A stretch of 64,000 nucleotides of DNA from Escherichia phage vB_EcoM-LTH01. Below the pieces are notes generated by a model. It made no database searches. It worked only from the letters and a program-made list of their open reading frames with translations, and was not told where the DNA came from. Position 1 is the stretch's first letter. Each line of letters opens with the position of its first letter. Where the stretch lies: sequence record PP430345, one strand, 5' to 3'. Position numbers and translations under genes: made by a program. Shown piece after piece: positions 9,733 through 47,548 of the stretch.

Positions 9733-10040
9733 CTTATCCTACGGTCACACAAGTCTGACCATCTATCTCTGAGCAAGGGATTTCAAAATGTCTCCCGTCC
9801 CCAAATACATCTCGCCACATAGTCTATTCGGAAGCGGGAGTCTATGCACACCCCTTGCGGTAAGTGACCTCACTTTGAGATCAGCATCTTCCTTATTCGA
9901 CGAGTTAAATTCTCTTTAAGGTAGCCAGTGTTCGCAGCACTAACTATGAGGTATCCGTAAGATGATTTCAGTCATCTACCGAAAAATTACACCAAGCAAC
10001 TACCTTAAAGAGAACTTCTTAGTAAAGGCCCTTGCGAGCC

Positions 10041-10421
10041 TTAATCTTCACCTTCTGCCATTTTATACTCACGAATCTGAGTAGTTAATGGAATAGCATC
10101 TTTAAATGCATCAGAAGGGCCTTGATGAGTTTCTGAATTTGCAGAAGTAGTTCCTCCTGCCAGATCCTCTTCATTATCTTCCATTGTGTACAGATTGTTT
10201 GCCTTTTCAGCTTGCTCAAGAATATACTTCGCAGTAGTTTCTTTAACTTTCTCTGTACCGGAAGTCAGTAGACCTTCCAGAGTTTTAATTGCTTGAGGAG
10301 TAAGTCTTGCAAACTCGGAACGAGCATGAAGAATTGCTCTCTCAGTATTGATTGCAATGCTTTCCTCTGTAGTAGGCCGACCGCGTTTTCGAGTAACGAT
10401 TTCAGCTTTAGCCATAAACAC
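10041..10421 (-). CDS. hypothetical protein with AT-hook-like KRGRP motif
   Basis: 126-aa ORF inside the tRNA region; N-terminal RKRGRPTTEE. Confidence 0.4.
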   Translation of the reverse strand: MFMAKAEIVTRKRGRPTTEESIAINTERAILHARSEFARLTPQAIKTLEGLLTSGTEKVKETTAKYILEQAEKANNLYTMEDNEEDLAGGTTSANSETHQGPSDAFKDAIPLTTQIREYKMAEGED

Positions 10422-10607
10422 CTCAATTCAGTCGATATAACTATATTAGCAGTATAATAGGATTATGTCAAGAACTTATTGAAATGTATTAAGAAATGAA
10501 ATGGGGGTGCGCCGTTTCTGCTGTAATCTACGTCGTTATCGTTGAGGGAACTCGTAGTCAGGGAACATCAGTCCGACGACTTATCGGGAGCGACCCGACT
10601 TCTTATG

Positions 10608-10682
10608 TGGTGGCCCTGGGTGGAATCGAACCACCGTCTGGCGATTATGAGTCGCTTGCTTGAACCGTCCAGCTACAGGGCC
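10608..10682 (-). tRNA. tRNA-Met (anticodon CAT)
   Basis: Acceptor GGCCCTG/CAGGGCC, anticodon loop CTCATAA, T-arm GGTGG-TTCGATT-CCACC, CCA encoded. Confidence 0.75.
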
Positions 10683-10697
10683 TGTATTTAAAAGAAC

Positions 10698-10782
10698 TTA
10701 GCGCGGGAGGAAGGACTCGAACCTTCATACTCCAATTACTCGATTAACGACGGTTTAGAAGACCGTTGAGATACACCCGCGC
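10698..10782 (-). ncRNA. tRNA-like element (Arg-TCT-like anticodon arm) lacking a recognisable D-arm
   Basis: Closing 10-bp stem TTAGCGCGGG/CCCGCGCTAA, canonical anticodon arm ACGGT-CTTCTAA-ACCGT, T-arm GAAGG-TTCGAGT-CCTTC, ~24-nt insert before T-arm; no 3' CCA encoded. Confidence 0.3.
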
Positions 10783-11093
10783 TAAATTCTCTTGTGGGTG
10801 GTGACAGGTTTTGGATATTTAACGACAGGATAACCTTAAACCTCGTCATCATGACAAGGGGTACACCGTAAAAGATTGTCGTGGTATTAAAACTATAATG
10901 ATCCGTGGATCACTAATCAGACGATCTTCGACGGCTCCCCGATATACACAGGGATGGACTGGGCATCCCATTTAGTCGCAGTCAACCAAAAGCGTAAATC
11001 GCGGCGGTGGTATATTGGTTCCAACATATATTTATCCACCCAGCCTTCAAGATGACTAATCTCTCAGGCAACAAAATAATCTTACATATTTAA

Positions 11094-36502: not shown

Positions 36503-37255
36503 ATGCAACGTCATACTAATCGTAAATCTCGTCAGGATCGTCGTGAAGAGAAGCGTTCAAAAGGCCGTCAGGTAACACCTAAAGCATATGAAGAGTTGAA
36601 AAAACCTATTACTCCAAAGAACCGATTCCAAAAGGAATTGTTATCCCTGGTTAACGAGAAGGAAGTTGTTTTCGTTAACGCTCCGGCGGGTACAGGTAAG
36701 ACATTTGTCATTATGAGTACCGTTATTGATTGGCTGAAGCAAGGTAAGATTGAAAAGATCGTCCTTACTCGACCAACATTGGGAATGGGGAACAGCCTCG
36801 GGTTACTACCTGGGACTATCCGTGAGAAATTCGAGCCTTTCCTTCAGGCACTTATTCAGGTTATTCAGCAACGCTACGGTCACGGTTTCTTTGAAACTCA
36901 GTTGGGTTGTGGTAACATTGAATTTGTTCCTCTGGAATATATCCGTGGACGTTCTTTCGATAATGCGGTTGTTATTGTCGATGAGTTTCAGAACACAGAT
37001 GAAGATACGGCTTACACGATTATGACTCGTAAAGGTGAAAGTTCTAAGCTGTTCTGCTTAGGCGATATCACACAGAACGATATGCGTAATCGTGAAACTG
37101 GATTAGAATGGGCAATCGAATTCATTGATCGTCATGAACTTTACGACTTTGCTGACTATGTGGAAGCAACAAGTGAAGAAATTGTCCGTAGTCCATTCTG
37201 TAAGGCAGTTGTTAAAGCTCGTGAAAGGGATCTTAAAGGAGGTAATTTAGTTTGA
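36503..37255 (+). CDS. phoH: PhoH-like ATPase
   Basis: Walker A VNAPAGTGKTF; PhoH-like downstream motifs. Confidence 0.8.
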   Translation: MQRHTNRKSRQDRREEKRSKGRQVTPKAYEELKKPITPKNRFQKELLSLVNEKEVVFVNAPAGTGKTFVIMSTVIDWLKQGKIEKIVLTRPTLGMGNSLGLLPGTIREKFEPFLQALIQVIQQRYGHGFFETQLGCGNIEFVPLEYIRGRSFDNAVVIVDEFQNTDEDTAYTIMTRKGESSKLFCLGDITQNDMRNRETGLEWAIEFIDRHELYDFADYVEATSEEIVRSPFCKAVVKARERDLKGGNLV

Positions 37256-42996: not shown

Positions 42997-43157
42997 CTAG
43001 AAATGGTAGTTCAGCATACGAGAAGGGCCGAGCAGCCGGATTCAAGTTTGGGATGTTCAAGAGAAACAACCCGTATGATCCAAACACCATGCCGGAGCAA
43101 TTTCAAGATTGGGAATCAGGATTTACAAAAGGGTATCAAGAAAAGGGGTGGTTATGA
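42993..43157 (+). CDS. ribosome modulation factor (RMF)-like small protein
   Basis: 54 aa from ATG 42993; GRAAGF...NPY...QDWESGF parallels E. coli RMF RGYQAG...CPY...QWLGGW (recalled). Confidence 0.35.
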   Translation: MTRNGSSAYEKGRAAGFKFGMFKRNNPYDPNTMPEQFQDWESGFTKGYQEKGWL

Positions 43158-43198
43158 GTGGATATGTGGGGATGGAAATAATAGGAGAAGAGAGAGTA

Positions 43199-44449
43199 AT
43201 GAAAGTTTACTTGGTAGGTGGCGCAGTTCGTGATGAACTGATGAGTGTTGAAAGTAAGGATCGGGACTATGTAGTCGTCGGCGCGACCCATGAAGAAATG
43301 ATTGAAAAGGGATTTACTAAGGTTGGTGCAGCTTTCCCTGTGTACCTTGAACCAAACACAAAAGAAGAGTACGCTCTTGCTCGAACGGAAAGATCAACAG
43401 GTCCTGGTTATCACGACTTCGAGGTTGTGTTCTCTCCCGACGTTACAATTGAACAAGACCTGATGCGAAGAGATTTGACCATTAATGCTATTGCCAAGGA
43501 TCTTTCTACGGGTGAAATTATTGACCCTTGCGGTGGTGTACTCGATATTGAACTTCGTCGGTTACGTTGTGTATCCACTAAAGCATTTATCGAAGACCCT
43601 TTACGTGTATACCGATTAGCCAGATTACATGCCAGATACGGCGGCGAGTTTACAATTGATCCTGAGACTTGGGGAATGTGCAAGGATGTTGATTTAAGTG
43701 CATTGCCAAAAGAGCGTAAATTTGCAGAGATTAAGAAATGCTTTAGTGATCAGTCAGAAATGAATAAACCTTCGGTAATGATCCGTATGTTGACTCAACT
43801 GGGAGAATTTCCTGAGCTTGTGGATTTATACGATGTTGTTCAACCCAAGGAGCACCACCCTGAAGGTGATGCATTTGTTCACACTTTACTTTGCATGGAT
43901 TATGCCCAAGCGACTCGTGCAAGTGAAGCTGTGAAGTGGGCAGTTCTGTGTCACGACTTAGGGAAATGCATTTATTGGTTAACAGGTAAATTGCACGGGC
44001 ATGAAGAACATGGTATCAAGTTGACTGAACAAGTTTGCGATCGCTTTGGTGTTCCTAACAATTGGAAGAAGTTAGCTTTAGCTGTAACTGAGCACCATAC
44101 ACGACTTCACCGTATCAAAGAGATGAAGCCAAAGAAAGTTTACGACTTGTTGGTAGCCTTACGTGGTGAAAAGGACCAGGCATTCCTTTCTGAGTTTATT
44201 GACGCTTGCATCTGTGATGCTCGTGGTCGTGGCCCTGAAAAAATGTTTGACAACTACACCCAGCCTTTGGTATTATTCTCAGCACTGGCGGGGATTGTTC
44301 AAAACAGCGTTGCAATCTCAAAAGAAAGTAAAGAGATTTCTGAAAGATTTGCTGGACGTCCAGAAGAGATCAAGAATAGAATCCGAAATGTAAAAGTAAG
44401 GTACGTTACACAATACATCGATAAGATGAAGGAGAGTGAAAATGGTTGA
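43199..44449 (+). CDS. cca: tRNA nucleotidyltransferase (CCA-adding enzyme) with HD domain
   Basis: MKVYLVGGAVRD head motif, HD-domain histidines (CHDLGK); start at ATG 43199 after AGGAGAAG. Confidence 0.8.
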   Translation: MKVYLVGGAVRDELMSVESKDRDYVVVGATHEEMIEKGFTKVGAAFPVYLEPNTKEEYALARTERSTGPGYHDFEVVFSPDVTIEQDLMRRDLTINAIAKDLSTGEIIDPCGGVLDIELRRLRCVSTKAFIEDPLRVYRLARLHARYGGEFTIDPETWGMCKDVDLSALPKERKFAEIKKCFSDQSEMNKPSVMIRMLTQLGEFPELVDLYDVVQPKEHHPEGDAFVHTLLCMDYAQATRASEAVKWAVLCHDLGKCIYWLTGKLHGHEEHGIKLTEQVCDRFGVPNNWKKLALAVTEHHTRLHRIKEMKPKKVYDLLVALRGEKDQAFLSEFIDACICDARGRGPEKMFDNYTQPLVLFSALAGIVQNSVAISKESKEISERFAGRPEEIKNRIRNVKVRYVTQYIDKMKESENG

Positions 44450-46420: not shown

Positions 46421-47548
46421 ATGGAAAATTCAGTTGTGAGTGCTGGAAAGGTAAAAAGTATCGTAGAGAAGATGGAAAAGCATCCAGACGTAGCAAAGGT
46501 CTTGATGTTGAGTCTGGCAGGATCTCATGCGTATGGTACGAATAACGAAGGCAGTGATATTGATATTCGTGGGGTTTTTGTTGCAACTCCAAATGTGGTT
46601 CGTACCCCATTCAAAGAGGTTACTGAATTAAACATCCCTGGTGAAGAGGATGCCAAGATCTACGAGTTGGGAACTTTCCTTCAACTGTTTTCGAAGATGA
46701 ACCCAAATATCATTGAACTGGGTTTTACTGATCCGAAAGCCACATTGTACGAGCACGAAGCTTGGAAAGAGATGAAAGAACATTTCTACTCCTTACTGTC
46801 TCGTGAAGTTGCATTTCGCTTCAGTGGTTATGCAATGTCTCAGTTAAAGCGGATCAAGGGTCACAACAAACACATTAATAATCCGCAACCAAAAGAGCCA
46901 CCAACTCAATTTGACTATTTCCGTCTGGTGCAGAGCTATCTCGGAGAAGGTGAGTTGAAGTATGAAGACTTTGTTCGTAAATTTAAAAACATGGAAGGCT
47001 TCTGTACTCTGGTTCCTTACGGTGGTAACATTTACGGTGTTGTAGAAGATCGTAGTGAAGATGTTCAACCAATGTTTAATAAAGATGGTTCTATCCGTAA
47101 GCTGGATTATGAAGAAATCCCAGAGGAGGTTAAAAGAGGTAAGACACTGATGATTGTTAAGTATTGTGCAGACGATCATAAATGGGCCAAGGATAAACAT
47201 CACAACTACTGGGAGTGGGTTAAGAATCGTAACGAGAAGCGTCATGAACTGGAAGAGAAGTTCGGTTACGACACTAAACATGCTATGCATTTGGTCCGGC
47301 TTCTTCGGATGGGTGAAGAAATCCTCACAGAAGGTAAAGTTTTAGTGAATCGACCAGACGCTGAAGAACTCCTCGCAATCCGAAATGGTGAATACCGCTA
47401 TGAAGAAATTGTTGACTGGGCTGAAGAAAAAGATAAAATGATCACAGATGTTCTTTATAAGCAATCGAGCTTACCGAAGAAAACAGATCTGAAGATTGTT
47501 GAAAAACTTATTCTGGAGGCACAAGACAAGGTATGGAAGGAAACCTAA
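46421..47548 (+). CDS. Pol-beta superfamily nucleotidyltransferase (substrate unknown)
   Basis: GSHAYGTNNEGSDIDI (GS-x9-DxD) near N-terminus; 375 aa with alpha-rich C-terminal region. Confidence 0.5.
   Translation: MENSVVSAGKVKSIVEKMEKHPDVAKVLMLSLAGSHAYGTNNEGSDIDIRGVFVATPNVVRTPFKEVTELNIPGEEDAKIYELGTFLQLFSKMNPNIIELGFTDPKATLYEHEAWKEMKEHFYSLLSREVAFRFSGYAMSQLKRIKGHNKHINNPQPKEPPTQFDYFRLVQSYLGEGELKYEDFVRKFKNMEGFCTLVPYGGNIYGVVEDRSEDVQPMFNKDGSIRKLDYEEIPEEVKRGKTLMIVKYCADDHKWAKDKHHNYWEWVKNRNEKRHELEEKFGYDTKHAMHLVRLLRMGEEILTEGKVLVNRPDAEELLAIRNGEYRYEEIVDWAEEKDKMITDVLYKQSSLPKKTDLKIVEKLILEAQDKVWKET

What the first reader, a model, noticed from the sequence alone, without database searches (positions are those of the whole stretch)
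10698..10782. D-arm-less tRNA-like RNA with Arg(TCT)-type anticodon arm and long closing stem
A perfect 10-bp terminal stem (TTAGCGCGGG/CCCGCGCTAA) encloses a textbook anticodon arm (ACGGT-CTTCTAA-ACCGT) and a textbook T-arm, but there is no D-arm, a ~24-nt insert precedes the T-arm and no CCA is encoded. The co-encoded CCA-adding enzyme would be needed to mature it if it is functional.
Basis: seen in the sequence. Interest (0 to 1): 0.55.

Follow-up and report, generated by a model that had tools for sequence, protein, structure and literature searches.

The report
Phage tRNA-Arg with a rewired D-arm
The "D-arm-less" RNA is one member of a large, apparently undescribed class of phage tRNAs whose D-arm is built from two separated segments, keeping the parts needed for the normal tRNA shape in a different order along the strand.

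Summary
On the minus strand (10780-10699) lie an acceptor stem, a CUUCUAA anticodon arm (UCU, Arg), a 23-nt insert and a T-arm, with no CCA. A CCA-adding enzyme is encoded at 43109-44449.

"D-arm-less" is wrong. The 5' CUC (10770-10768) pairs with GAG in the insert (10741-10739). This helix is 100% paired in 53 distinct homologs, and every change in it is compensatory. The rest of the insert, U-AAUUGGA-GUAU, is a D-loop with canonical A14/G18-G19 spacing, A20 (the main E. coli ArgRS determinant) and U48.

So the order is 8-9 | 22-26 + anticodon arm | linker | 10-21 | 48 | T-arm.

The scaffold occurs in 251 sequenced phages, including Felix O1 and phi92, and in many viral contigs. It always lies in tRNA clusters on the tRNA strand and takes the slot of the canonical tRNA-Arg(UCU). 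Only Arg anticodons were found on it (UCU, CCU, UCG, ACG).

A sister Ile family (GAU/UAU/CAU, A73, U20) shows D-stem covariation at all three pairs and 15:48 Levitt covariation (G:C 37, A:U 20, other 1).

The likeliest function is an AGA/AGG-decoding tRNA. No prior description was found. The L-shape, expression and charging are untested.

The parts
10781..10793 (-). 5' leader (AAGAGAAUUUAGC) that pairs with the 3' trailer, giving 13 extra base pairs stacked on the acceptor stem
   Evidence: Pair-by-pair check. The same CCA-less subtype with 12-15 extra pairs, each with a different sequence, recurs in 7 lineages.
10774..10780 (-). Acceptor stem, 5' strand (G1-G7: GCGGGUG)
   Evidence: Pairs with 10709-10703 except U6.U67. 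All 7 pairs co-vary across 53 homologs.
10772..10773 (-). U8 A9
   Evidence: Invariant in alignment A2. This includes sequences recovered with a pattern that left the position free.
10768..10771 (-). U22-C23-U24-C25: geometric equivalent of the D-stem 3' strand. It leads through A26 straight into the anticodon stem.
   Evidence: CUC pairs with GAG at 10741-10739. The helix is 100% paired with only two-sided changes. Across 75 unique elements the pair types are CUC/GAG, CGC/GCG, CGG/CCG, CAC/GUG, CAG/CUG, CCC/GGG, CAU/AUG, CUU/AAG and CGU/ACG.
10767..10767 (-). A26
   Evidence: Its position between the D-stem analogue and the anticodon stem. In some homologs (C26 or U26) it pairs with the base just before position 10.
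10750..10766 (-). Anticodon arm: stem ACGGU/ACCGU and loop CUUCUAA. The anticodon UCU (Arg, AGA/AGG) is at 10759-10757.
   Evidence: All 5 stem pairs co-vary. The arm is identical to that of the canonical tRNA-Arg(UCU) of phage Moogle.
10742..10749 (-). Linker CGUUAAUC joining position 43 to position 10. It replaces variable-loop positions 44-47.
   Evidence: The length varies among homologs: 3-4 nt (UCA, AUA, AGYC), 8 nt (CRUUAAYN) or 10 nt (GUCGUUAAAY). That is consistent with a connector.
10738..10741 (-). G10-A11-G12-U13: D-stem 5'-strand equivalent, relocated 3' of the anticodon arm
   Evidence: It pairs with 10770-10768. U13 opposite U22 is conserved in 74 of 75 elements.
10727..10737 (-). 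D-loop equivalent A14-A15-U16-U17-G18-G19-A20, followed by G-U-A21-U48
   Evidence: The A14...G18-G19 spacing is canonical. A20 is present in all Arg-type members and replaced by U in Ile-type members. A20 is the main E. coli ArgRS determinant (PMC9976931). 15:48 is A:U in 73 of 75 Arg-type elements and G:C in one. In the Ile-type family it co-varies as G:C 37 / A:U 20 / other 1.
10710..10726 (-). T-arm GAAGG-UUCGAGU-CCUUC
   Evidence: Three of the five stem pairs show two-sided changes.
10703..10709 (-). Acceptor stem, 3' strand (CUCCCGC)
10690..10702 (-). Discriminator G73 (10702), then CUA where most homologs have CCA (10701-10699), and the trailer that pairs with the leader
   Evidence: 50 of 73 unique homologs encode CCA and show no leader:trailer pairing.
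43109..44449 (+). Phage CCA-adding enzyme (446 aa), the candidate for completing the 3' end of this CCA-less tRNA
   Evidence: Pfam PolyA_pol head domain (E 4e-19) plus HD domain (E 2e-8). Its link to this tRNA is inferred.
9235..10682 (-). Rest of the tRNA cluster on the same strand: Met (10682-10608), Tyr, Pro, Gly and Gln, all encoding CCA
   Evidence: ARAGORN and Rfam. CCA ends were read. Promoter-like site at 11107-11079(-) and terminator-like hairpin at 9186-9165(-); these are consensus matches only.

Best explanation
The locus encodes a tRNA-Arg(UCU) with a non-canonical strand order, which I call a 'transposed D-arm' tRNA.

In a normal tRNA the order is 8-9, D-stem 5' strand + D-loop (10-21), D-stem 3' strand (22-25), 26, anticodon arm, variable loop, T-arm. 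Here it is U8-A9, then U22-C23-U24-C25-A26 and the anticodon arm, then a linker, then G10-A11-G12-U13 with the D-loop (A14 A15 U U G18 G19 A20 ... A21), then U48 and the T-arm.

Shown: the D-stem forms between the two separated segments, CUC with GAG.

Inferred:
- This helix stacks on the anticodon stem.
- The relocated D-loop reaches the T-loop (G18-G19 with 55-56). U8-A14 and A15-U48 close the core, giving the ordinary L-shape with different connectivity.
- The RNA is arginylated by host ArgRS through A20, C35, U36 and G73. It decodes AGA/AGG, which this phage uses heavily.
- For the window copy specifically: it is made as a precursor whose leader and trailer form a 13-bp duplex on top of the acceptor stem. 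It is trimmed by RNase P at the 5' end and by an endo- or exonuclease at the 3' end. It then receives CCA from the phage or host CCA-adding enzyme.

Why phages use this topology is unknown. My guess is escape from a host or phage factor that recognises the canonical D-arm and variable-loop face of tRNA.
For: Structure
- The new helix is 100% paired in 53 distinct Arg-type sequences. There are 18 two-sided changes and no one-sided or broken pairs. Shuffles give 83% paired (0 of 500 reach the observed value) and slid registers give 7-39%.
- These sequences came from scans that left both strands of the helix free.
- In 58 Ile-type sequences from a metagenome scan with both strands free, all three pairs co-vary and pairing is 100%.
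- The insert core GAGUAAnyGGA keeps the canonical A14...G18-G19 spacing.
- 15:48 co-varies as G:C 37, A:U 20, other 1.
- Acceptor, anticodon and T helices co-vary strongly.

tRNA function
- The element always lies in tRNA clusters on the tRNA strand. In 87 Arg-type loci no neighbouring tRNA is on the opposite strand. In 88 Ile-type loci the count is 619 same strand to 3 opposite.
- It occupies the syntenic slot (Ile-GAU | X | Ser-UGA | Leu-UAG | Lys-CUU) that holds a canonical tRNA-Arg(UCU) in Moogle-like phages.
- Only 2 of 87 loci also hold a separate canonical Arg(UCU), even where the cluster has 22-28 tRNAs.
- With the anticodon loop left free, only Arg anticodons were found: UCU, CCU and UCG, plus ACG found by the covariance model. 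Single phages carry UCU+CCU, UCU+UCG or UCU+ACG pairs.
- Identity elements track the anticodon. Arg-type members have A20, C35 and U/G36. Ile-type members have U20 and A73 in 64/64 and 62/62. These match the published identity sets (PMC9976931).
- 50 of 73 unique Arg-type members encode a discriminator plus CCA.
- AGA and AGG make up 13.3% and 9.5% of Arg codons in 51 window ORFs.
- A CCA-adding enzyme gene is in the window.
Against: - There are no expression, end-mapping, charging or structural data. The L-shape and the tertiary contacts are inferred from sequence logic.
- RNAalifold, given no hints, does not predict the 3-bp helix. The single-sequence fold is not significantly stable (z = -1.75).
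- In the Arg family G12-C23 never varies, apart from one divergent copy, and 15:48 is almost invariant. The tertiary covariation therefore comes from the sister Ile family.
- The window copy departs from the majority. It has a U6.U67 mismatch, no CCA and a long leader:trailer duplex. These could impede RNase P or 3' processing, or indicate a different use.
- The shuffle and Fisher statistics are not corrected for phylogeny.
- Sampling used fixed sequence patterns, so the true diversity is under-sampled and each scan is biased toward the blocks it held fixed.
Confidence: 0.7

Rival explanations
1. It is a non-translational tRNA mimic. The RNA would fold like a tRNA-Arg but act as a decoy or sponge, for example for a host tRNA-directed nuclease or toxin, or for ArgRS or a modification enzyme. 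Alternatively it could serve as a processing or regulatory element of the tRNA operon, without delivering arginine to the ribosome.
For: - The topology is non-canonical and ARAGORN misses it.
- The window copy has no CCA, has a U6.U67 mismatch, and is enclosed in an 18-bp terminal helix whose extension is conserved by compensatory change in 7 lineages.
- Phage tRNAs have been proposed to counter tRNA-targeting defences (PMC10264068, title and abstract).
Against: - A decoy would not need four different Arg anticodons, or UCU+CCU, UCU+UCG and UCU+ACG pairs within single phages.
- It would not need aaRS identity elements that switch with the anticodon: A20 for Arg, U20 and A73 for Ile.
- It would not need an encoded discriminator plus CCA, present in two thirds of members.
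- It replaces the canonical tRNA-Arg(UCU) rather than accompanying it.
Confidence: 0.15
2. One reading: a true D-arm-less tRNA like mitochondrial tRNA-Ser(AGY/UCU). It would have an unstructured D-replacement segment and an unrelated 24-nt insertion in the variable region.
For: There is no contiguous D hairpin. Infernal aligns it to RF00005 with the D-arm deleted and the insert looped out. RNAalifold predicts only three helices.
Against: - The 5' segment and the insert pair, with strictly compensatory changes, in two independent families.
- The insert carries the D-loop signature A14/R15/G18-G19 and isotype-specific position 20.
- Position 15 co-varies with the base before the T-stem.
- None of this is expected for an unrelated insertion.
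Confidence: 0.05
3. It is a class-II-like tRNA whose long extra arm makes it a substrate for SerRS, LeuRS or TyrRS, so that AGA would be recoded.
For: A 23-nt segment lies between the anticodon arm and the T-arm, where class II tRNAs carry their long variable arm.
Against: - The segment has no self-contained stem. The candidate internal pairings (AAU/AUU, UC/GG) are broken by natural variants, and RNAalifold finds none.
- Its conserved bases pair with the 5' segment instead.
- A20, C35 and U36 fit ArgRS.
Confidence: 0.03
4. It is a decaying tRNA-Arg pseudogene or a rearrangement scar with no function.
For: The Rfam score is marginal. The locus is unannotated or overlapped by 'hypothetical protein' calls in most GenBank records. 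The window copy lacks CCA and has one acceptor mismatch.
Against: - It is present in 251 sequenced phages from several unrelated groups and in many viral and metagenomic contigs.
- The stems have diverged completely while pairing is kept at 98.6%.
- The single-stranded core is almost invariant.
Confidence: 0.02

Closest known systems
Canonical phage and bacterial tRNA-Arg(UCU), for example Citrobacter phage Moogle tRNA-Arg (L077:1476-1552). E. coli argU and T4 tRNA-Arg are cited from my own knowledge.
   Same: - Identical anticodon arm (ACGGU-CUUCUAA-ACCGU) and a very similar T-arm.
- 7-bp acceptor stem, U8, A14, G18-G19, A20, and an A/G discriminator.
- Same genomic slot in the Ounavirinae tRNA array.
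- Presumably the same job, reading AGA/AGG.
   Different: - The order of segments along the strand differs. The D-stem 5' strand and D-loop lie after the anticodon arm instead of before the D-stem 3' strand.
- There is no ordinary variable loop. A 3-10 nt linker joins 43 to 10, and 21 runs directly into 48-49.
- The D-stem is 3 bp plus a conserved U.U.
Mitochondrial D-arm-less tRNAs: mammalian mt-tRNA-Ser(AGY) and nematode mt-tRNA-Ser(UCU) (PMC7609411, PMC4013460)
   Same: There is no contiguous D hairpin. By coincidence some also have a UCU anticodon. Both are natural departures from the cloverleaf.
   Different: - The mitochondrial tRNAs really lack a D-stem and the G18-G19/T-loop elbow contacts. 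They are flexible and work with co-evolved mitochondrial factors.
- The phage RNA keeps a D-stem, the D-loop signature, the Levitt pair and a full T-arm. It must work with ordinary bacterial machinery.
Viral tRNA-like structures (for example the TYMV TLS) and the tRNA-like domain of tmRNA (from my own knowledge; viral TLSs are mentioned in PMC9976931)
   Same: Both reach a tRNA-like shape and aaRS recognition with a backbone connectivity different from that of tRNA.
   Different: TLSs are 3' ends of RNA genomes and build the acceptor arm from a pseudoknot. The tmRNA domain has no anticodon arm. Neither acts as a decoding adaptor. The phage RNA is a free-standing gene in a tRNA array with a normal acceptor/T minihelix and an anticodon.
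Circularly permuted and split tRNA genes (Cyanidioschyzon, Nanoarchaeum; reviewed in PMC4033280; details from my own knowledge)
   Same: The gene order of tRNA segments differs from the canonical order.
   Different: In those cases processing restores a canonical mature tRNA. Here the 5' and 3' ends are in their normal places and the permutation is internal (10-21 exchanged with 22-43). The mature RNA itself would therefore have the new connectivity. No splicing signals are evident.
Other non-canonical bacterial tRNAs: tRNA-Sec and allo-tRNAs with 8/4 or 9/3 acceptor/T geometry (PMC7609411)
   Same: They are bacterial-type tRNAs that depart from the standard cloverleaf, and gene finders often miss or mislabel them.
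   Different: They keep the normal order of arms and a contiguous D-arm, changing only helix lengths. The phage tRNAs keep standard 7/5 helix lengths but change the strand order.

Membership tests
tRNA (Rfam RF00005 / functional transfer RNA) | Score at or above the curated Rfam gathering threshold | tested here: met
   35.8 bits against a gathering score of 29, but only with the D-arm deleted and 20 nt looped out. Homologs score 29-37 bits.
tRNA (Rfam RF00005 / functional transfer RNA) | 7-bp acceptor stem, 5-bp anticodon stem with a 7-nt loop (U33, purine 37), and 5-bp T-stem with a GTTCRANNC loop | tested here: met
   All three helices co-vary. The window copy has one U6.U67 mismatch.
tRNA (Rfam RF00005 / functional transfer RNA) | A contiguous D-arm hairpin between position 9 and position 26 | tested here: not met
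   Only UCUC lies between A9 and A26. ARAGORN fails to call it.
tRNA (Rfam RF00005 / functional transfer RNA) | A D-stem helix and the conserved core nucleotides U8, A14, R15:Y48, G18-G19 and A21 | tested here: met
   The D-stem is formed in trans-order by 23-25 with 10-12. U8, A14, G18 and G19 are invariant. 15:48 covariation is shown in the Ile-type family. Whether these bases make the canonical contacts is inferred.
tRNA (Rfam RF00005 / functional transfer RNA) | A 3' CCA end, aminoacylation and use on the ribosome | not testable with these tools
   CCA is not encoded in the window copy but is encoded in 50 of 73 unique homologs. A CCA-adding enzyme gene is present. No expression or charging data are available.
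Bacterial tRNA-Arg identity (ArgRS substrate) | A20 in the D-loop, C35, U36 or G36, and an A/G73 discriminator (PMC9976931) | tested here: met
   In the window: A at the position following G18-G19 (10731), C35, U36 and G73. A20 is present in all Arg-type members and replaced by U in Ile-type members. Discriminators across 73 unique elements are G 35, A 28, U 9, C 1. Actual recognition by ArgRS was not tested.
D-arm-less (mitochondrial type III) tRNA | No D-stem; a short unpaired connector replaces the D-arm; the D-loop/T-loop contacts are lost | tested here: not met
   A co-varying D-stem analogue and a D-loop signature are present.
Class II tRNA (Leu/Ser/Tyr type) | A long variable arm that forms its own stem-loop | tested here: not met
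   The 23-nt segment has no co-varying internal stem. It pairs with the 5' segment instead.

The most novel reading that the evidence does not exclude
Bacteriophages use a third, so far unrecognised tRNA architecture, the 'transposed D-arm' tRNA. In it, segments 10-21 and 22-43 are exchanged along the strand, yet the molecule still folds into an L-shape, is charged by host ArgRS or IleRS, and decodes on bacterial ribosomes.

It is used for the codons that are rare in the host (AGA/AGG/CGN for Arg, AUA/AUY for Ile). It occurs in hundreds of phages, including the classics Felix O1 and phi92. It may have evolved to escape host or phage factors that recognise the canonical D-arm and variable-loop face of tRNA.
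Probability: 0.55. Interest if true: 0.9.

Novelty: new variant of a known kind. Interest (0 to 1): 0.82.

Why it matters
- **tRNA architecture.** The cloverleaf order of arms is treated as universal outside mitochondria. A widespread family that keeps every element of the tRNA core but wires it in a different order would show that the L-shape can be reached by another topology. It would also show that ordinary bacterial enzymes (RNase P, CCA-adding enzyme, ArgRS/IleRS, EF-Tu, the ribosome) accept it.
- **Annotation.** Gene finders miss or mislabel these genes. ARAGORN finds 5 tRNAs in this window, and the Septuagintavirus paper reports 5 per genome. GenBank records carry 'tRNA-OTHER', 'tRNA-TERM', 'hypothetical protein' or nothing at this spot. 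Phage tRNA inventories and codon-usage analyses therefore under-count Arg(UCU) and Ile decoders.
- **Phage-host conflict and engineering.** If the rewiring gives resistance to tRNA-directed defences, it is a new counter-defence principle. The scaffold could also be useful as an orthogonal or nuclease-resistant tRNA chassis.

Tried and rejected
- **Single-sequence folding.** The MFE structure is not tRNA-like and not significantly stable (z = -1.75). The proposed structure has about the same energy as the MFE (-19.9 against -19.7 kcal/mol). Thermodynamics neither supports nor excludes it.
- **RNAalifold on A2.** It recovers three helices but not the 3-bp helix. The claim therefore rests on covariation.
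- **Hairpins inside the insert.** AAU/AUU with a CGAGUA loop, and U7.G18/C8-G17, are both broken by natural variants.
- **Extending the anticodon stem through C13-G45.** Rejected because G45 changes to A or U with no partner change.
- **Other Rfam families.** Nothing beyond weak chance hits.
- This scan used a mis-counted spacer (24 N instead of 23). Its zero result means nothing. It was repeated correctly.
- **Cellular genomes.** The scan of 185,579 species' genomes gave only 3 MAG contigs. Two hold full elements and one is partial. This is not a cellular tRNA type.
- **Weak covariance-model hit at window 37061-37137(+).** 17 bits. On inspection it has no tRNA features.
- **Literature.** Eight full-text searches, including the conserved sequence as a search string, and six papers read. 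No description of this layout was found. Subscription-only literature is not covered.
- **Pfam scan of ORFs around the CCA-adding enzyme.** It found only a Clp-protease-like protein and an RlaP-family protein. No RNA ligase or kinase was found.
- **Promoter and terminator scan.** Counts were near the shuffle expectation, so I treat the sites as suggestive only.
Full report
**1. What is at the locus**

The feature reads on the minus strand. From 10780 down to 10699 the sequence is:

GCGGGUG UA UCUC A ACGGU CUUCUAA ACCGU CGUUAAUC GAGU AAUUGGA GUAU GAAGG UUCGAGU CCUUC CUCCCGC G CUA.

The terminal stem is longer than reported. Thirteen leader:trailer pairs (10793-10781 with 10702-10690) continue into acceptor pairs 1-5:68-72. 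A U6.U67 mismatch and G7-C66 follow.
- Rfam's tRNA model matches at 35.8 bits against a gathering score of 29. It does so only by deleting the D-arm and looping out 20 nt. ARAGORN does not call it. It finds five ordinary tRNAs on the same strand at 9235-10682.
- All five ordinary tRNAs encode CCA. This RNA has CUA instead.
- A 446-aa protein with PolyA_pol head and HD domains, the architecture of a CCA-adding enzyme, is encoded at 43109-44449.

**2. Where the window comes from**

- The region is 96-98% identical to Escherichia phages UPEC06, A7_1, A5-4, A73 and W70, in Vequintavirinae.
- A7-1, A5-4, A73 and W70 are the genus Septuagintavirus. The paper describing them reports five tRNA genes per genome, found with ARAGORN (PMC11370258). 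The sixth gene studied here has been overlooked.

**3. The element is widespread and always sits among tRNAs**

- blastn with the 82-nt element finds 251 sequenced phage genomes with 80% coverage or more. They include Felix O1, phi92, Klebsiella phage Sugarland (T5-like), KB57/Mydo and 121Q-like jumbo phages.
- Annotations at the site are absent, 'tRNA-OTHER', 'tRNA-TERM', 'tRNA', 'hypothetical protein' or 'HNH endonuclease'.
- Pattern scans of IMG/VR added about 100 more loci.
- One scan of 185,579 bacterial and archaeal species' genomes gave only three MAG contigs.
- In 87 loci, every ARAGORN tRNA is on the element's strand and none is opposite.

**4. The key result: a split D-stem**

- A first alignment of seven distant copies showed compensatory changes in the acceptor, anticodon and T stems. 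The segment GUAUCUCA, the loop CUUCUAA and nearly all of the insert were invariant.
- That invariance was partly imposed by my search patterns, so I freed each block in turn. When the 5' block and the insert were freed together, the 5' CUC and the insert's GAG changed together: CGC/GCG, CUU/AAG, CAC/GUG, CAG/CUG, CAU/AUG, and later CGG/CCG, CGU/ACG and CCC/GGG.
- On 53 distinct 82-nt sequences (alignment A2) the helix at columns 11-13 with 40-42 is 100% paired.
  - There are 12 and 6 two-sided changes at two of its pairs, and no one-sided or broken pairs.
  - Shuffles give 83% paired (0 of 500 reach the observed value). Slid registers give 7-39%.
  - My filters never required this pairing.
- RNAalifold does not predict this helix. 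It is a 3-bp helix across an asymmetric internal loop, so the support is comparative and not energetic.

**5. The 'insert' is the D-loop**

- Homologs have inserts of about 19-28 nt. They share the core GAG-U-A-A-n-y-G-G-A.
- Read as G10 A11 G12 U13 A14 A15 N16 Y17 G18 G19 A20, this has exactly the canonical spacing between the D-stem, A14 and G18-G19. It also carries A20.
- The segment ends in A-U just before the T-stem. That fits A21 and U48, the Levitt partner of A15.
- Compare the canonical tRNA-Arg(UCU) of phage Moogle: GCACCCU UA GUUC AAACGGAUA GAGC A ACGGU CUUCUAA ACCGU CAGUU ACAGG... Its anticodon arm is identical to the window's.
- The strand that runs 5'-to-3' into the anticodon stem is UCUC-A. 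So UCUC takes the place of positions 22-25, and GAGU, which runs on into the D-loop, takes the place of 10-13.
- The layout is therefore 8-9 | 22-26 + anticodon arm | linker | 10-21 | 48 | T-arm. Segments 10-21 and 22-43 are exchanged.
- The linker varies from 3 to 10 nt, as expected for a connector.
- From my own knowledge of tRNA crystal structures, not computed here: A9 lies against the 12-23 pair, 44-45 lie next to the 10-25 pair, and A21 stacks beside the 15-48 layer. The three new joins (9 to 22, 43 to 10, 21 to 48) therefore connect residues that are neighbours in the L-shape.

**6. Evidence that it is a working tRNA-Arg**

- *Synteny.* Moogle and Sf14 have Ile(GAU)-Arg(UCU)-Ser(UGA)-Leu(UAG)-Lys(CUU). 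Felix-O1-like VpaE1 has Ile(GAU)-[element]-Ser(UGA)-Leu(UAG)-Lys(CUU).
- *Replacement, not addition.* Only 2 of 87 loci also contain a separate canonical Arg(UCU), even where clusters have 22-28 tRNAs.
- *Anticodons.* With the anticodon loop unconstrained, the scaffold carries only Arg anticodons: UCU (most), CCU and UCG. The covariance model added an ACG copy. Single contigs carry UCU+CCU (L060, L075), UCU+UCG (L076, L097) or UCU+ACG (L055).
- *Identity elements.* Bacterial arginine identity is A20, C35, U/G36 and A/G73 (PMC9976931). The window copy has all four. A20 is present in every Arg-type member.
- *3' ends.* 50 of 73 unique members encode a discriminator plus CCA.
- *Codon demand.* AGA and AGG are 13.3% and 9.5% of Arg codons in 51 window ORFs. 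From my own knowledge, these are among the rarest E. coli codons.

**7. A sister family confirms the architecture**

- The covariance model (R1) also picked up copies with Ile anticodons.
- A viral scan found 90 such loci with 64 unique sequences.
  - Anticodons are UAU (49) and GAU (15).
  - The discriminator is A in 64/64. U replaces A at position 20 in 62/64. A73 and U20 are both bacterial Ile determinants.
  - Neighbouring tRNAs are 619 on the same strand and 3 opposite.
- The single metagenome scan left the D-stem analogue free.
  - It gave 62 unique sequences in which the helix is fully paired in 62/62, using ten different triplet combinations.
  - The discriminator is A in 62/62, and 15:48 is G:C or A:U in 61/62.
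- On the 58 equal-length sequences (A3) the formal count gives the following:
  - all three pairs have two-sided changes (12, 34 and 18 sequences);
  - 15:48 is G:C 37, A:U 20, other 1;
  - the whole structure is 93.8% paired, against 58% in shuffles and 38-49% when slid.
- In the earlier viral set the 15:48 association gave Fisher p = 1.8e-10, not corrected for relatedness.
- In the Arg family 15:48 is A:U in 73 of 75, with one G:C (L069).
- So the helix and a hallmark tertiary pair are both supported. Position 20 switches with the amino-acid identity.

**8. What is special about the window copy**

- It belongs to a minority subtype without encoded CCA. Seven lineages of this subtype have 12-15 contiguous leader:trailer pairs, each with a different sequence. 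CCA-encoding members average 0.6 such pairs. The extension is therefore selected.
- Its role is unknown. One inference is a processing stalk analogous to the leader:trailer stems of rRNA precursors. After cleavage, the ends would be trimmed and CCA added by the phage enzyme (43109-44449) or the host enzyme.
- A sigma-70-like match upstream (11107-11079, minus strand) and a terminator-like hairpin after tRNA-Gln (9186-9165) would fit one operon. Both are only consensus matches.
- The U6.U67 mismatch and the missing CCA make function less certain for this copy than for the family.

**9. Comparison with known systems and novelty**

- It is a tRNA in function-defining features, but it fails one structural criterion, a contiguous D hairpin.
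- It is not a mitochondrial-type D-arm-less tRNA, because it has a D-stem and D-loop. It is not a class II tRNA, because it has no self-contained extra arm.
- The nearest concepts are viral tRNA-like structures and the tmRNA tRNA-like domain, which reach an L-shape with other connectivity, and permuted tRNA genes, whose mature product is canonical.
- Eight full-text searches, including the conserved sequence itself, and the reviews of non-canonical tRNAs found no description. Rfam has no dedicated family.
- I therefore rate it a new variant of a known kind. The caveat is that subscription-only literature could not be searched.

**10. Limits**

- There are no expression, end-mapping, charging or structural data.
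- The tertiary fold is inferred.
- The statistics are not corrected for phylogeny.
- Sampling relied on exact patterns that fixed some blocks in each scan.
- The covariance-model E-values are rough.
- Why phages use this topology is not explained. Escape from factors that recognise the canonical D-arm and variable-loop face is a guess, not a result.

Noticed in passing
L074:1078-1156, L097 (second copy), L106-L191 (viral contigs), L194-L280 (metagenome contigs): A second large family of tRNAs has the same transposed D-arm topology but Ile-type anticodons (GAU, UAU, CAU). It has A73 in all members, U at position 20, a 5-nt NGAAA linker and a conserved U27.U43 mismatch. Few members encode CCA (9 of 64). 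The CAU members could be Met or lysidine-dependent Ile2.
   Followed up: partly
window 10690-10702 with 10781-10793; also L011, L018, L021, L030, L079, L098: This is a CCA-less subtype of the rewired tRNA-Arg. Its leader and trailer form 12-15 extra base pairs on top of the acceptor stem, with compensatory differences between lineages. Members that encode CCA have none. The purpose is unknown; a processing stalk is one possibility.
   Followed up: partly
L002:111-195 (Klebsiella phage Roth50, annotated tRNA-OTHER): A different odd tRNA-like gene. It has a normal acceptor stem, D-arm and T-arm, but the anticodon loop is replaced by a hairpin-containing segment of about 20 nt (CGCGGGGAGCUAUCCCCAGA).
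   Followed up: no
L060:5748-6218: A GOLLD RNA (Rfam RF02032, 176.5 bits) sits inside a 28-tRNA array on a viral contig. The same contig carries two rewired tRNA-Arg genes (UCU and CCU).
   Followed up: no
window 46421-47548 (+): A 375-aa protein of the RlaP family ('RNA repair pathway DNA polymerase beta family') lies 2 kb downstream of the CCA-adding enzyme gene. No RNA ligase or kinase was found among the neighbouring ORFs that were scanned.
   Followed up: partly
L104 (Felix O1, AF320576 25953-26025); L001 (UPEC06); other GenBank records: Protein-coding annotations overlap the rewired tRNA gene: ORF100 'unknown' in Felix O1, and 'hypothetical protein' or 'HNH endonuclease' elsewhere. In UPEC06 short hypothetical CDSs cover the tRNA cluster. 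These calls are probably spurious.
   Followed up: no
L030:1522-1598 and 1611-1692; L051: Two contigs carry both a canonical tRNA-Arg(UCU) and a rewired one. In L030 they are 13 nt apart. This pair would allow a direct comparison of the two forms within one phage.
   Followed up: no
L077:669-1417 (phage Moogle): ARAGORN reports a 749-nt permuted 'tmRNA*' that spans several tRNA genes. This is almost certainly a false call.
   Followed up: no
L022, L060, L079: In three loci ARAGORN does call the rewired element, as an over-long (94-98 nt) tRNA-Arg(tct). Detection therefore depends on flanking sequence, which explains the inconsistent annotation across genomes.
   Followed up: no
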